Below are positions 41,412 through 59,307 of a stretch of DNA of 64,000 bases, in pieces. Both the position numbers and the translations under genes were made by a program. Source of the stretch: a virus. Positions within the stretch are counted from its first letter, which is position 1; the number at the start of each line of letters is the position of its first letter. The stretch spans positions 32,001 to 96,000 of the IMG/VR virus record IMGVR_UViG_3300050821_007134. One strand, written 5' to 3'. Below the pieces are notes generated by a model. It saw only the letters and a list, made by a program, of their open reading frames with translations. It was not told the origin of the DNA and did no database searches.

Positions 41412-41864
41412 TTAAGGGAGGCTGGTTGCTCCTGAACTTTCATCCTGGTCACCGGCTTCATCACTTAACCTGATGCCTGTGTAGTTGATTGTAACACGGC
41501 TGGTGGCGCGAGCATTGTGGTTACCGTTATAAGAGGTCGGGATACACCCGATTGCAGTCATAATGGTTGCACCAGTTTGTCGGTCAACAACGGCCAATGT
41601 AACGTTCTCTAAAGTCAAGAGATCTTGCAATTTTGGAAATTTTGGAAGAACCATAGGTCCTTGGCCAACTACCCTAAAAGCACCGCATGTAAGCGTAACT
41701 GCGTCATAAGACGTAGGAGTGATCTCATCTGGGCTATAACGGCCCAAAAGATGAATTGGTTCATTTCCAATATTGACGTTATAAGAGACTGTTTCAAAGA
41801 TACCAACGAGTGTATCGTCTACGTATACTTTTGTTCGGGCTCCAACTAAAACTTTTGATGGCAT
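41412..41864 (-). CDS. Tail tube protein
   Basis: 150 aa directly downstream of sheath; typical myovirus tube pattern. Confidence 0.85.
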   Translation of the reverse strand: MPSKVLVGARTKVYVDDTLVGIFETVSYNVNIGNEPIHLLGRYSPDEITPTSYDAVTLTCGAFRVVGQGPMVLPKFPKLQDLLTLENVTLAVVDRQTGATIMTAIGCIPTSYNGNHNARATSRVTINYTGIRLSDEAGDQDESSGATSLP

Positions 41865-41888: not shown

Positions 41889-44663
41889 TTAAGCGGCGCT
41901 CTGTACTTGCGATACGTTAATGGTAATCGGTACGAAGTAGATAGCGGTTGCAAGCTTGATTTCGACTGCAACGTCCATTTCAGGACCATTGACGCTGACT
42001 TTGGGATTTTTGAACCCGAGAGGAGCATCTGTGCTGCCTGCGATTAACTTTAATCGTTTGTATCCATCCATTTTTTGAGCTAAGAAGCTCAAAGCGGTAG
42101 CGGCGTCGACATCGGCCAAGCTCTTACCAACAAAGGATGCTTGGAAGCTTGCGGCGAGATCGAGGGCCAAAATATCCGAAGCGTACACGGCTTGGATGCT
42201 GTTATAAACGAAATTGGCGTCAAAGGCATAAGTCGTTTGGTCACTAACCCAACGAACTCCAGCGGTATCTTTGGTCCAAAATAATAGACCAGCATCGAGT
42301 GCATCTTCAACATCACCAGGGCTACCCGAGTCAAATCCTGAAGGATCAAGGTAACTGATAACGTTTGCGAATTTGTTAACGATGGCTTTATAGAAACCGC
42401 CCGTTTGCATACCGGCAGCAACAACTGCTTGGTACCAAGGGAGGAAGCTTGTGATAACGCCTTGCGAGTTAACTTGCGAAGGCCTTTGGAAAGCCAAAGA
42501 ACAACGGTACTGAGCAATCCCTTGAGATTTTTGTTTCGTCTGAGCATAAGTTCCCCAGAAAGAAAGGATTGCGATACGATTCTTTTTAAGCTTCGGTGTG
42601 CTGAATTGGATACAATGAGCCTTAGCAGCTGCATGGATTGCATCAATGGTGTAGGTCGAAGATGAATCGGTTAATCCGTCAGCGATATCAGCGCTTGCAT
42701 CTCTTGAGAAGAGAGGAACGATAATGTTAACATTCAATCCAGCCAATGCGTTGATTGCAGCGATAACTTGAGCAGCAGAAGTTCCACCTTTGGTTCCACC
42801 AGATAAGAAAATTGGAGCTGCATTTGGATTGGGTAATCCAGAAGAAGCTTGAGGTGCGAAATTCAATGCGCGAGAAGTACTCATACCTTGTTCGAAAGAG
42901 AACAGAGCATCTTTAATTCTTCCAGGCTGTTCACCAGCTCCGCTTGAAGCGATACCGGCTGCGGTAACTGCATCTAAAGCAGAAGGAGGTAATTGCTGAG
43001 CAGAAGGAGAAGCTGAAGCTGAATATCCAGATTGAGAATTGATAAAAGCAGCAATGTCGGCAACCGTTCTGTATTGGCTAAGAGCGATACTTAAGTTAGC
43101 ACCTGATCCGCCACTAACAGTAGTCGTCAACATTTGACTTACGGGATTAATTGTTAAAGTTGCGGTCGTACCTTGGTAACCAACGTTTAAGGCAATTTGA
43201 GTTGCAACGTCGATTGTTTCGCTTAAGTTAATGTCGGCGCGGTTGATTTGAACTTCAACAGAAGCCTCTTGAGCGGCAACATTTAAACTGTCAGAAAGAC
43301 CTAAAGCGGCTAAATCTCCAGGAGTAGAGTCGAACAATTCAAAACTTCTTGCATCTCCCCTTCGATAAGCGGTAGCATCTATGGCCATGGTAAGAGCAAT
43401 ACTATTTGGTGCAGCGCCAGGTGATGCAGAGATTCCAGAGGGAAGTAACAAATTGAGTTCAGTTATTAACTGAGCCTGATTTGAGTGGTTAGCTCCGTTG
43501 ATTACTCCAGGAGGGAAATTTGTGATTGAAGTTCCAGGACTCACACCAACGTTACCATTGATAATAGTACCGCTAGATGCGCTACCAGTTACGGCTGAAG
43601 CACCTAAGAGACCAAACGTCCCAGCGTAATTTAATAGAGGAGCTTGCTGTGCGTTGACGACAGTGGGTGCGCTTAATGTGACGGCTCCAGTAAGAGCAAT
43701 TAAACTGCCGTTTACAACGGTTCCTAATGTGTCAGTGATTGATGCTTGAGCGATAACGTTACCTTGGAAAGTACCAGCGAATGAAGAATCAAGAGTTGCA
43801 GAACTTCCGACGAGCCAATAAACGTTTTTGGCTAAAGCGCCACCAGTAAAGTTAATAACAGGAGTACCGCTTGAACCAGTCACTAAAGTACTTGCAGTTT
43901 TGATTACGAATACGTCAGTTGAAGAACCGCTAAAAGTAAGAGGTCCGCCTGCATCTAAGGAAGCGGCGCCCGTGCTATAATAACCAGCGGTTAATGTTTG
44001 ACCATCGAGAACAGCGGGAATTGAAACATATCCGCCATGACCAGATAAACTTGTGTAAGCGGCCTGAGCAGCTGATTGAGCTGAAGCGGCTTCGCTTGGA
44101 CTAACTGGACCAGAAGAGCTGCTACTAAGAGTGATAACATTGGCTGCTCCACCGTTTAATCGAAGTGTAAAAGAAGCGCCGTCTAAAGCTGCACCGAATG
44201 CAGGGATAGTTCCACCGGAAAGGGTAGGAGGAGCTTCGGTAGCGATCGAAGTAACTTGATATCTGTATTGGTTTCCAGGAATGCCGAAATTTTGATCAGA
44301 AAAAAGTCCATAGTTAGTGTCAACAGCGGCAGAAGCCTTTGCACTCGTATTTGTTTTTACGATGTAGATTAAATTTGCAGACCCAGTGATATCAGCATCA
44401 GCTGAAGGAGCAGATAATGCTCTCATAGCATCAACGATTGGACCGCTAAGGTATTGTTGTTGAACTTTATCCAATTGATCTGGAGTAAATGAATTGCTGC
44501 TCAAAGGATTAAGATCACTGAAAACATCTCCACCATCGGCTTCACCGATTATGACTACGTTACCAGAAGATCCGATACCAACAGGTTGGCTTTGAACAAC
44601 GATGTTAGGATACGCTCCAGGGATATTGGTATTAATGAAACTTGTTGCTAGTCTTTGAGACAT
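41889..44663 (-). CDS. Contractile tail sheath with inserted DUF3494-like domain
   Basis: N-terminal IPGAY..IIGEADGG; FLSGGTKG; C-terminal FVGK...YFVPITI; insert at aa ~186-393. Confidence 0.92.
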   Translation of the reverse strand: MSQRLATSFINTNIPGAYPNIVVQSQPVGIGSSGNVVIIGEADGGDVFSDLNPLSSNSFTPDQLDKVQQQYLSGPIVDAMRALSAPSADADITGSANLIYIVKTNTSAKASAAVDTNYGLFSDQNFGIPGNQYRYQVTSIATEAPPTLSGGTIPAFGAALDGASFTLRLNGGAANVITLSSSSSGPVSPSEAASAQSAAQAAYTSLSGHGGYVSIPAVLDGQTLTAGYYSTGAASLDAGGPLTFSGSSTDVFVIKTASTLVTGSSGTPVINFTGGALAKNVYWLVGSSATLDSSFAGTFQGNVIAQASITDTLGTVVNGSLIALTGAVTLSAPTVVNAQQAPLLNYAGTFGLLGASAVTGSASSGTIINGNVGVSPGTSITNFPPGVINGANHSNQAQLITELNLLLPSGISASPGAAPNSIALTMAIDATAYRRGDARSFELFDSTPGDLAALGLSDSLNVAAQEASVEVQINRADINLSETIDVATQIALNVGYQGTTATLTINPVSQMLTTTVSGGSGANLSIALSQYRTVADIAAFINSQSGYSASASPSAQQLPPSALDAVTAAGIASSGAGEQPGRIKDALFSFEQGMSTSRALNFAPQASSGLPNPNAAPIFLSGGTKGGTSAAQVIAAINALAGLNVNIIVPLFSRDASADIADGLTDSSSTYTIDAIHAAAKAHCIQFSTPKLKKNRIAILSFWGTYAQTKQKSQGIAQYRCSLAFQRPSQVNSQGVITSFLPWYQAVVAAGMQTGGFYKAIVNKFANVISYLDPSGFDSGSPGDVEDALDAGLLFWTKDTAGVRWVSDQTTYAFDANFVYNSIQAVYASDILALDLAASFQASFVGKSLADVDAATALSFLAQKMDGYKRLKLIAGSTDAPLGFKNPKVSVNGPEMDVAVEIKLATAIYFVPITINVSQVQSAA

Positions 44664-58338: not shown

Positions 58339-59307
58339 TTAGGGGCCAGTGTTGCCGCTGATTAATGTAACTGCGGTCTGAGCATAGAGAGATCCGTGAA
58401 CCGTACATGTCGCTTGAACTGCGATTGATGTTTGATCCAAGATAACGCCTCTGAATATTGAACTTGTTTTCAGAGTGGTTGCGCCTGCAACTGCCCATGT
58501 AACGTTTTGTGGCAAGATTCCACCAGTCAAATGAATTTGAACACCAGTTTCTAAATTGAGAGTACCGGCAATTTGAAGGATGATTGAATCTGCGGGTCCG
58601 CCATTGATAGTGATATCACCAGTGACATCGACTGCTGTGGACCATTTGTAAATCCCAGGAGTTAAAGTTTGACCGTTAAGAGTACCTGCGCCTAAGTTAA
58701 CAACCGGAGCTGGGCTTGTTTGTGCTTGAGCAAAAGTGTAAGCAGCTTGCATTGCACTAACAGCTGCCGTTAAGTTTGCAGGAGTTGGAGCTGCGTTATC
58801 GGAAGCATCCACGTTTCCAGAAACTTCAACAGCACTTCCATGTGGGCCAGCGAGATTTGGAGTGTATGTGAAACCAGTGATTGCAGTATGTGAAATTGGA
58901 CTTACTGCAATGTTACCTGTAACTGTTGCGCCGGATGCATTGCTGATTCCAGATTCAGCTAACATTCTGTAATTTGAAGCAGAACCTAAGTTTACCAAAG
59001 CTGGGCCACGATGAACAGGAATTGCGCAATGAGCATTGATGCTTGCAACGACGGCTTCCATAACATCATCACTTGCGAACCCATCTTCCATTACTGCTTG
59101 GTCATGCAGAGAAAGAGATCTTTGACATAACATAGCAGCTTGAATATTTTGGGCTACGGTTTTGCTGCCCATGGCGTCTGTCAATCTAATGAAAGTTTTT
59201 GGTGAGAGAATTGCGCCAGCATCGATTGCTGCACAAAATTCTTTACCGGCTTTTACGTCTGCCAGTGCGACAATGACGTTGGGAATAAATTTACTCGGGA
59301 ATGCCAT
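58339..59307 (-). CDS. DUF3494 ice-binding-family protein with ~100-aa N-terminal domain
   Basis: VNLGSASNY..LAESGISN, GQTLTPGIYKWS, I.QIAG.L, NVTWAVAGATTL, G.LYAQTAVTL. Confidence 0.9.
   Translation of the reverse strand: MAFPSKFIPNVIVALADVKAGKEFCAAIDAGAILSPKTFIRLTDAMGSKTVAQNIQAAMLCQRSLSLHDQAVMEDGFASDDVMEAVVASINAHCAIPVHRGPALVNLGSASNYRMLAESGISNASGATVTGNIAVSPISHTAITGFTYTPNLAGPHGSAVEVSGNVDASDNAAPTPANLTAAVSAMQAAYTFAQAQTSPAPVVNLGAGTLNGQTLTPGIYKWSTAVDVTGDITINGGPADSIILQIAGTLNLETGVQIHLTGGILPQNVTWAVAGATTLKTSSIFRGVILDQTSIAVQATCTVHGSLYAQTAVTLISGNTGP

What the first reader, a model, noticed from the sequence alone, without database searches (positions are those of the whole stretch)
43485..44108. Circularly permuted DUF3494 ice-binding-type domain inserted in the tail sheath
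Seen: sheath aa ~186-393 read helix (EAASAQSAAQAAYTSL), GQTLTAGYY, VFVIKTASTL, NVYWLVGSSATL, GSLIALTGAVTL. Only then comes the segment that normally begins DUF3494 (LNYAGTFGLLGASAVT..INGNVGVSPGTSITNFPPGVING). The canonical order is visible in the 58339-59307 paralogue. Known: in DUF3494 the N-terminal coil stacks next to the C-terminal coil, so this permutation is structurally feasible. Inference: every sheath subunit displays the domain, giving a multivalent ice- or surface-adhesive tail.
Basis: partly seen in the sequence, partly recalled or inferred. Interest (0 to 1): 0.8.

Follow-up and report, generated by a model that had tools for sequence, protein, structure and literature searches.

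The report
Rearranged ice-binding fold on phage sheath
An uncultured soil phage related to Myxococcus phage Mx1 has a complete but re-ordered copy of the microbial "ice-binding protein" fold spliced into an outer loop of its tail sheath protein; the add-on is gained, lost and traded among related phages, and what it binds (ice, slime or cell surface) is untested.

Summary
The 924-aa gene at 41889-44663 (-) is a contractile tail sheath. Residues ~185-390 are a clean ~205-aa insertion relative to hundreds of ~717-aa relatives that run straight through the site. The insert holds every position of DUF3494/PF11999 exactly once, in the order helix + coils 2-6, then coil 1. That is a true circular permutation with its breakpoint at profile position ~56-59.

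AlphaFold models it confidently, and it matches solved ice-binding proteins (Z 17.9, 1.8 A).

The internal junction matches the repeat-to-repeat junction of tandem DUF3494 arrays in other proteins carrying closely related DUF3494 domains. The module therefore looks like an out-of-register excerpt of such an array.

The same module sits at two different sites in two sheath clades and in an unrelated 523-aa protein class. Its presence is patchy on the sheath tree, so it behaves as a swappable cassette.

The ice-binding interpretation is not supported by any evidence beyond the fold. DUF3494 has no ice-binding motif and occurs in warm habitats; the source here is only labelled "soil". I favour a dispensable, multivalent surface-adhesion decoration.

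The scan noted the same arrangement before in another genome (e1-5668416). No paper on it was found.

The parts
41889..44663 (-). Contractile tail sheath gene, 924 aa (P0001)
   Evidence: phrog_279 tail sheath, E 5.9e-24. 45% identity to the annotated Mx1 tail sheath over aa 466-924. The full-length AF2 model (pLDDT 83) has as best Foldseek match the phage 812 sheath, E 2.5e-20.
43494..44111 (-). Inserted cassette, aa ~185-390: the whole circularly permuted DUF3494 domain
   Evidence: It is absent as one clean gap from ~717-aa sheaths that are 65-79% identical in the core. The P0016 (+) / P0256 (-) sister pair differs by exactly this block.
43653..44108 (-). First piece of the cassette, aa 186-337: long alpha-helix (189-207) plus coils beta2-beta6. 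It matches PF11999 positions 56-207.
   Evidence: Model pLDDT is >90. VIA-align gives Z 17.9, rmsd 1.8 A, 152 aa to 7BWY chain 46-203.
43494..43649 (-). Second piece of the cassette, aa 339-390: the segment that normally opens DUF3494 (coil beta1 and its loop; PF11999 positions 2-48, own profile 3-59). It is joined to the first piece by a linker of about 3-6 residues.
   Evidence: E 2.2e-4 on its own; 6EIO 12-81, i-E 1.1e-06; 57 bits, 3e-19. pLDDT is 92-97. Generic beta-helices (1EE6) align across model 70-248, so both pieces form one solenoid in the model.
44130..44174 (-). Host strands just before the insertion (aa 164-178), part of a small accessory sheath subdomain
   Evidence: Conserved in relatives without the insert. 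Strands E164-169 and E174-178 appear in the model.
43446..43493 (-). Host residues just after the insertion (aa 391-406), including helix 396-406
   Evidence: Present and contiguous with the preceding strands in the 717-aa sheaths. Helix H396-406 appears in the model.
58339..59307 (-). Paralogue, 322 aa (P0002), with canonical-order DUF3494 at aa 115-317
   Evidence: PF11999 E 4.1e-54, profile 1-204. Its N-terminal ~100 aa are shared with a 523-aa protein class that carries the permuted cassette.
41412..41864 (-). Gene immediately downstream of the sheath, 150 aa; probable tail tube
   Evidence: phrog_985 virion structural protein, E 6.5e-06. The 'tube' assignment is inferred from position only.

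Best explanation
Shown:
- The sheath protein of this Mx1-like soil phage carries a complete, circularly permuted DUF3494 beta-helix.
- It sits in a loop of a small accessory subdomain, between the second strand and the helix of that subdomain.
- Re-ordering puts the long helix first and the normally N-terminal coil last. The odd native coil order (beta1-beta6-...-beta2) becomes a plain sequential solenoid.

Inferred from the fold:
- The two new chain ends lie where the native chain was continuous, so they are next to each other. That is what a domain needs to be spliced into a loop of another protein.

Shown by alignment, inferred as history:
- The module is an out-of-register excerpt of a tandem DUF3494 array of the kind found in other proteins whose DUF3494 domains are the sheath domain's closest relatives (the back three quarters of one repeat plus the front quarter of the next).
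- It moves as a cassette between two sites in the sheath and an unrelated protein class encoded on the same contigs as insert-bearing sheaths.

Inferred function:
- Each sheath subunit should display one copy on the outside of the tail, six per ring.
- The copy is not needed for contraction, because most close relatives lack it.
- Most likely role (about 45%): weak, multivalent adhesion of the virion to a hydrated repetitive surface such as host exopolysaccharide or cell-surface glycan, analogous to Ig-like decorations.
- Ice binding (about 15%) and lattice stabilisation (about 20%) remain open.
For: Permutation. There are two independently significant hits in reversed order, and a single 250-bit hit after swapping the pieces.

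Fold:
- pLDDT >90 over the domain; Z 17.9 and 1.8 A to 7BWY/6EIO for the helix plus beta2-beta6.
- A continuous alignment to ordinary beta-helices spans both pieces.
- The native coil order comes from PMC7966756.

Insertion and dispensability:
-. The 717-aa relatives run through the site.
- P0016 (with insert) and P0256 (without) are sisters (96*).
- The tree needs at least 4 changes of state.

Sheath identity.

Origin from tandem arrays:
-. The sheath junction aligns continuously across the repeat-to-repeat junction of P0007, P0122, P0123 and P0013.
- 43 of 255 relatives have the tandem N-C-N-C arrangement.
- Clade ii sheaths and the 523-aa class show Pfam alignments that reach upstream into profile positions 15-29. 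This is compatible with relics of a first coil.

Cassette behaviour:
- the same module occurs in two sheath sites ~28 columns apart, in the 523-aa class and in P0003/P0125.
- sheath domains interleave with canonical-order DUF3494 domains of other, non-sheath proteins on the domain tree.

Lean towards adhesion:
- The genome has DUF3494 in four genes, including a 2287-aa protein and a protein of at least 883 aa.
- The 523-aa class pairs the cassette with carbohydrate-associated domains PF13290/PF13287.
- Accessory sheath domains are thought to aid adhesion or stability (PMC9230969).
Against: - I had no model coordinates. Stacking of the last piece on coil beta6 rests on confidence values, strand assignment and the span of generic beta-helix alignments, not on a permutation-aware superposition.
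- The trees rest on ~150 columns (domain) or FastTree (core). Many branches are weak, so the number and direction of gains, losses and exchanges is uncertain.
- The tandem-array origin is a historical inference. A single ancient permutation followed by spread is equally compatible.
- No data bear directly on any ligand. The adhesion reading is by analogy.
- Exposure on the outer sheath surface is inferred from general sheath architecture, not from an assembled model.
Confidence: 0.7

Rival explanations
1. Ice binding. About a hundred or more functional ice-binding domains along the tail would make the virion stick to ice, or protect it (or its surroundings) from freeze-thaw damage in seasonally frozen soil.
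For: - All solved structural neighbours are experimentally characterised ice-binding proteins.
- The domain is complete and about as conserved as the sheath core: 60-72% domain identity against 57-80% for the core or the whole protein.
- Multivalent display would raise avidity.
- The source is a soil metagenome, and soils can freeze.
Against: - No ice-binding-site motif exists in this family, so sequence and fold cannot show activity (PMC7966756).
- The PDB is biased, because only ice binders were chosen for crystallography.
- No cold-habitat metadata could be recovered.
- The same phage group places the domain in very large multidomain proteins and next to carbohydrate-associated domains.
Confidence: 0.15
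2. Structural role. The beta-helix makes contacts between neighbouring sheath subunits or rings and stiffens or stabilises the extended tail, with no external ligand.
For: - Accessory sheath domains have been proposed to cement the assembled tail, for example domain II of phage 812 (PMC9230969).
- The insert is under purifying selection, with identity similar to the core.
Against: - Close relatives function without it, and others carry unrelated inserts at the same site.
- The same cassette occurs in non-sheath proteins.
- A lattice contact would be expected to co-evolve with the core, yet the domain and core trees disagree.
Confidence: 0.2
3. Not a permuted fold. The region would be a truncated tandem remnant: an incomplete DUF3494 lacking its first coil, followed by the orphaned start of a second, degraded copy that does not pack onto it.
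For: Tandem arrays are common among relatives, and the junction resembles an inter-repeat junction.
Against: - Every profile position is present exactly once, with a 3-6-residue linker.
- The trailing piece is conserved in all ~40 proteins with this order.
- It is modelled at pLDDT 92-97 with strands, in a single domain of pTM 0.80.
- Ordinary beta-helices align across both pieces.
Confidence: 0.04

Closest known systems
Single-domain DUF3494 / IBP-1 ice-binding proteins: EfcIBP (PDB 6EIO) and AnpIBP (7BWX/7BWY). Also FfIBP 4NU2, ColAFP 3WP9, TisAFP 3VN3/5B5H, SfIBP_1 6BG8.
   Same: - Same Pfam family (109.6 bits).
- 30-37% identity.
- Same right-handed triangular beta-helix with a long flanking helix (Z 16-18, rmsd 1.8-2.4 A over ~152 residues).
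   Different: - The chain order is circularly permuted: helix + beta2-beta6, then beta1.
- It is not a secreted stand-alone protein, but a domain spliced into a virion structural protein.
- Ice binding is untested.
- The source is soil, with no evidence of a cold habitat.
Accessory (non-core) domains of contractile tail sheath proteins: T4 gp18 outer domains, phage 812 sheath domains, and the Ig-like inserts surveyed by Evseev et al. 2022 (PMC9230969)
   Same: - The conserved N- and C-terminal core is interrupted by extra domains that face away from the tube.
- These domains are dispensable for contraction.
- They are more numerous in large phages.
- A role in adhesion or stability has been proposed.
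   Different: The surveyed inserts are mostly Ig-like sandwiches or helical. The terms 'beta-helix' and 'ice-binding' do not occur in that survey or in any paper pairing 'tail sheath' with 'ice-binding'. Here the insert is nested inside another accessory subdomain and is itself a permuted fold.
Myxococcus phage Mx1 tail sheath (WNM70095.1, OR576727.2)
   Same: It is the closest deposited phage protein, with 45% identity over aa 466-924. Length (953 aa) and N/C-core layout are similar.
   Different: Mx1 has no PF11999 match. The region equivalent to the insert is occupied by unrelated sequence without a Pfam match.
Two-domain and tandem DUF3494 proteins (for example IBPv, PDB 5UYT) and the multi-repeat DUF3494 proteins found here (P0007, P0013, P0122, P0123)
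   Same: Closely related domains (55-70% identity). The C-to-N junction of the sheath cassette aligns with their repeat-to-repeat junction.
   Different: Those proteins keep whole units in canonical order. The sheath holds a single unit's worth of sequence, in shifted register.

Membership tests
DUF3494 / Ice_binding (PF11999) | Sequence match above Pfam's gathering score | tested here: met
   109.6 bits against a cut-off of 28.7, E 2.3e-31.
DUF3494 / Ice_binding (PF11999) | Complete domain: all parts of the profile present | tested here: met
   Profile 56-207 plus 2-48. Own profile 59-209 plus 3-59, and 4-209 in one hit after swapping the pieces.
DUF3494 / Ice_binding (PF11999) | Canonical chain order beta1, helix, beta2-beta6 | tested here: not met
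   The order is helix, beta2-beta6, beta1. It is a circular permutant of the family, not a canonical member.
DUF3494 / Ice_binding (PF11999) | Right-handed triangular beta-helix with a long alpha-helix alongside | tested here: met
   AF2 pLDDT >90 over the domain. Z 17.9, rmsd 1.8 A, 152 aa to 7BWY, and similar to 6EIO, 4NU2 and 3WP9.
DUF3494 / Ice_binding (PF11999) | Coil beta1 stacked on coil beta6 | tested here: inconclusive
   The sequential aligners covered only model 40-200 against ice-binding proteins. Indirect support comes from pLDDT 92-97 with strands in aa 339-390, and from 1EE6 aligning across model 70-248. No coordinates were available for a permutation-aware superposition.
Ice-binding / antifreeze proteins (functional class) | Measured ice binding (ice shaping, thermal hysteresis, recrystallisation inhibition) | not testable with these tools
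   No conserved ice-binding-site motif exists (PMC7966756), so activity can only be shown at the bench.
Contractile tail sheath proteins | Conserved sheath core formed by the N- and C-terminal parts | tested here: met
   - phrog_279 E 5.9e-24 over aa 486-922.
- Foldseek to phage 812, P1, phiCD508 and T4 sheaths, best E 2.5e-20.
- Relative P0262 gives a sub-threshold PF04984 match (25 bits against a cut-off of 31.4).
Contractile tail sheath proteins | Placement in a tail module next to a tube gene | tested here: inconclusive
   The downstream 150-aa gene hits only 'virion structural protein' (phrog_985, E 6.5e-06). Mx1 has the same order, with an unannotated small gene after the sheath.
Circular permutants arising by duplication and truncation | The new internal junction corresponds to the junction between tandem copies | tested here: met
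   Sheath aa 300-390 align continuously across the C-to-N junction of tandem repeats in P0007, P0122, P0123 and P0013, differing only by a 4-10-residue shorter linker.
Circular permutants arising by duplication and truncation | Intermediates or relics (partial extra pieces at the ends) | tested here: inconclusive
   Pfam alignments of clade ii sheath P0025, of P0029 and of P0003 extend upstream into profile positions 15-29. Clade ii starts with the motif that precedes the helix in canonical proteins. This is suggestive but weak. The window's own sheath shows no relic.

The most novel reading that the evidence does not exclude
Uncultured soil phages maintain their own pool of DUF3494 cassettes, including an insertion-ready permuted form. 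With them they coat virions in functional ice- or surface-binding domains. Such phages would then be the first viruses with structural ice-binding proteins. They could also be a reservoir and vehicle for the puzzling horizontal spread of DUF3494 genes among bacteria, algae and fungi.
Probability: 0.15. Interest if true: 0.85.

Novelty: new variant of a known kind. Interest (0 to 1): 0.62.

Why it matters
1. **A natural circular permutant with a visible route.** This much-studied fold is otherwise known only in one chain order. Here the route is laid out: tandem arrays, a shifted-register excerpt, and possible relics. There is also a clear structural pay-off, since adjacent ends allow the domain to be spliced into loops.

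2. **Sheath loops accept large foreign folds.** A tail-sheath surface loop tolerates, and repeatedly exchanges, a 205-residue foreign domain. This gives a natural blueprint for displaying cargo on sheath nanotubes.

3. **A link to the spread of DUF3494 genes.** In this phage group DUF3494 is a recurrent module of the sheath and of other large proteins. That ties the unresolved questions of what non-polar DUF3494 proteins bind, and how the gene spreads horizontally (PMC7783341), to phages, where simple binding and ice assays could answer them.

No deposited phage genome (50,697 records) and no paper in the searched library shows this.

Tried and rejected
- **Assembly artefact or chimera:** rejected. 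About 20 clade i and about 15 clade ii sheaths from independent metagenomes share the architecture.
- **Truncated tandem remnant:** rejected as the main reading (see rivals).
trimmed to ~390, because aa 391 onward are host sequence.
- **BLAST extension of sheath aa 154-186 onto paralogue 137-170:** rejected as spurious. Those residues are host strands conserved in insert-less sheaths.
- **Single origin of the sheath insert:** not supported. The two clades use sites ~28 columns apart, and the domain tree mixes clades.
- **Literature:** nothing for 'DUF3494' + 'circular permutation', nothing relevant for 'DUF3494' + 'phage', nothing for 'tail sheath' + 'ice-binding'. PMC3386094 is not held.
- **tblastn of the domain against 50,697 GenBank phage records:** no match.
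- **BFVD:** only giant-virus (Hyperionvirus) DUF3494 proteins.
- **Habitat:** only a coded 'soil metagenome' run, probably the source sample. This is no evidence for or against cold.
- **Tools:** Model coordinates are not exposed, so no permutation-aware superposition could be run.
Full report
**1. What is there**

The finding lies inside a 924-aa ORF at 41889-44663 on the minus strand. Window 43485-44108 corresponds exactly to aa 186-393.

The protein is a contractile tail sheath:
- It matches PHROG 279 'tail sheath' (E 5.9e-24, aa 486-922).
- Its only relative among 50,697 deposited phage genomes is the annotated tail sheath of Myxococcus phage Mx1, at 45% identity over aa 466-924.
- A full-length AlphaFold2 model (mean pLDDT 83) has as best PDB matches the sheaths of phage 812, P1, phiCD508, Mu and T4 (best E 2.5e-20).

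The window is part of a 171-kb IMG/VR virus record rated complete. The DNA occurs in one soil-metagenome run, which is probably its source.

**2. The permutation is real**

Pfam PF11999 (Ice_binding/DUF3494) scores 109.6 bits against a cut-off of 28.7, but in two stretches:
- aa 174-335 align to profile positions 56-207.
- aa ~353-390 align to positions 2-48.

Three other references show the same reversal:
- The solved protein EfcIBP, 6EIO: chain 104-227 matches the earlier part (i-E 1.3e-13) and chain 12-81 the later part (1.1e-06).
- The in-window paralogue at 58339-59307, which is itself canonical (profile 1-204 on aa 115-317).
- A profile I built from 99 canonical single units taken from the homologues. 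In native order the sheath gives two hits: hmm 59-209 at 187 bits, and hmm 3-59 at 57 bits (3e-19). When the two pieces are swapped it gives a single hit over hmm 4-209 at 250 bits.

Every profile position is therefore present exactly once. The breakpoint is at about position 56-59, the loop between the first coil region and the long helix.

**3. It is a clean insertion**

A search with the sheath core (aa 480-924) found over a thousand relatives. The closest, at 65-79% identity, are overwhelmingly ~717 aa long and carry no PF11999.

In alignment these proteins run uninterrupted from the second strand of a small subdomain into the following helix. The window's protein has ~205 extra residues exactly there, aa ~185-390. 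The residues right after the insert (aa 391 onward, helix 396-406) are host sequence.

Other relatives treat the same region differently:
- One relative (P0257, 783 aa) has an unrelated ~66-aa insert at the same site.
- Mx1 has other sequence in that region, with no Pfam match.

**4. Structure**

A model of aa 142-400, built with a 38-sequence alignment, has mean pLDDT 85 and pTM 0.80, with pLDDT above 90 across the DUF3494 part.

Comparison with solved structures:
- Foldseek and VIA-align place it with solved DUF3494 ice-binding proteins. The best is 7BWY: Z 17.9, rmsd 1.8 A, 152 residues, 36% identity.
- Because these aligners are sequential, only model 40-200 (helix plus coils 2-6) aligns, to the C-terminal three quarters of each chain.
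- Ordinary beta-helices such as pectate lyase 1EE6 align across model 70-248, which spans both pieces.

In crystal structures the DUF3494 coils are stacked in the order beta1-beta6-beta5-beta4-beta3-beta2, described as unique to this family (PMC7966756). Moving beta1 to the end of the chain therefore turns the fold into a plain sequential solenoid. It also leaves the new termini where the native chain was continuous. I infer that this makes the module fit for splicing into a loop.

I could not obtain coordinates, so the stacking of the last piece on beta6 is supported only indirectly.

**5. Relatives and origin**

Splitting 255 related proteins into 'N' and 'C' pieces gave 118 canonical N-C, 43 tandem N-C-N-C and 40 C-N.

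The C-N proteins fall into these groups:
- About 20 sheaths of 914-923 aa (57-72% identical overall).
- A second sheath clade of 944-963 aa (35-38% identical).
- A 523-528-aa class. It shares only the cassette with the sheath, shares its N-terminus with the window's paralogue, and ends in PF13290/PF13287 domains.
- A few others, including P0003, which has two permuted units in tandem.

Two further observations bear on origin:
- After the cassettes are excised in silico, the two sheath clades align well, and the insertion points lie ~28 columns apart: before the first strand of the subdomain in clade ii, after the second strand in clade i.
- The internal C-to-N junction of the sheath cassette aligns continuously with the repeat-to-repeat junction of tandem arrays in large related proteins (P0007, P0122, P0123, P0013). 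It differs only by a shorter linker.

This is the signature expected if the permutant arose as a shifted-register excerpt of a tandem array.

**6. Mobility**

On a tree of the sheath core, presence of the insert needs at least four changes of state. The window's sheath groups (98*) with P0016, which has the insert, and P0256, which lacks it. Those two are sisters (96*).

On a tree of the domain's C piece, sheath cassettes of the two clades are mixed with each other and with canonical domains from non-sheath proteins. For example, the window's sheath domain groups with P0004 and with clade ii P0025 (97*).

These trees are short or quick, and many branches are weak. Even so, together with the multiple host contexts they indicate a cassette that is gained, lost and exchanged.

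The genome itself has four PF11999 genes:
- the sheath;
- the 322-aa paralogue;
- a 2287-aa protein;
- a protein of at least 883 aa at the contig end.

**7. Function**

Shown:
- The domain is complete.
- It is about as conserved as the sheath core.
- It is absent from most close relatives, so it is not needed for contraction.

Inferred: six copies per sheath ring are displayed on the outer surface, as for other accessory sheath domains (PMC9230969).

Ice binding cannot be read from sequence, for these reasons:
- The family has no conserved ice-binding-site motif (PMC7966756).
- The solved structures are all ice binders because those were the ones chosen for study.

The cassette also occurs in very large multidomain proteins and beside carbohydrate-associated domains in this phage group. 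I therefore favour a multivalent surface or polysaccharide adhesion role (about 45%). Lattice stabilisation (about 20%) and ice binding (about 15%) follow. None of these has been tested.

**8. Novelty**

Searches of the paper library returned nothing relevant:
- 'DUF3494' with 'circular permutation': nothing.
- 'DUF3494' with 'phage': nothing relevant.
- 'tail sheath' with 'ice-binding': nothing.

Other checks agree:
- The 2022 survey of sheath architectures describes Ig-like and helical extra domains only.
- The domain has no tblastn match in deposited phage genomes.
- BFVD holds only giant-virus DUF3494 proteins.

Earlier notes of this scan describe the same permuted sheath insert in another genome (e1-5668416). 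They also describe DUF3494 cassettes in other proteins of this and other uncultured phages (e1-5654304, e1-5979479, e1-5361796). My results agree with them.

I class the finding as a new variant of known kinds: a permuted DUF3494, and a new type of sheath accessory domain.

**9. Limits**

- No coordinates were available for a permutation-aware superposition.
- Habitat metadata are limited to 'soil'.

Noticed in passing
window 58339-59307 (-), and proteins P0028-P0030, P0034: The 322-aa paralogue (canonical DUF3494) shares its N-terminal ~100 aa with a 523-528-aa class found on the same contigs as insert-bearing sheaths in other phages. That class carries the permuted cassette plus C-terminal PF13290 (CHB_HEX_C_1) and PF13287 (Fn3_assoc) domains. 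Related proteins thus carry either chain order.
   Followed up: partly
G000:C1:157289-164152 (2287-aa ORF) and G000:C1:168275-171073 (ORF of at least 883 aa, runs to the contig end): Two more canonical DUF3494 domains sit in very large proteins of the same phage. Nearby are proteins with weak adenovirus-fibre and C1q-like matches. The genome has four PF11999 genes in all.
   Followed up: partly
protein P0257 (783 aa), aligned at window ~43494-44111: A close sheath relative has an unrelated ~66-aa insert at exactly the site where the window's sheath holds the DUF3494 cassette. Mx1 has yet another sequence there. The loop is an insertion hot spot.
   Followed up: partly
protein P0003 (602 aa): It holds two permuted units in tandem (C-N-C-N). 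This is either a possible intermediate or a secondary duplication of the cassette.
   Followed up: no
window 43002-43118 (sheath aa 516-554), and Mx1 sheath aa 547-582: Both sheaths show weak, sub-threshold matches to the Flagellin hook IN motif (PF07196) in a conserved accessory region. This is probably only a similar small beta motif.
   Followed up: no
sheath clade ii proteins (P0025, P0054) just upstream of their cassette: The cassette begins with the short His-x-Asn-Asp motif that precedes the helix in canonical DUF3494. Pfam alignments extend upstream to profile position ~15, a possible relic of a first coil left by duplication and truncation.
   Followed up: partly
phage collections: The DUF3494 domain of the sheath has no tblastn match (E <= 1e-3) in 50,697 deposited phage genomes. 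BFVD contains the fold only in Hyperionvirus (giant virus) proteins. Phage-borne DUF3494 appears confined to uncultured phages so far.
   Followed up: yes
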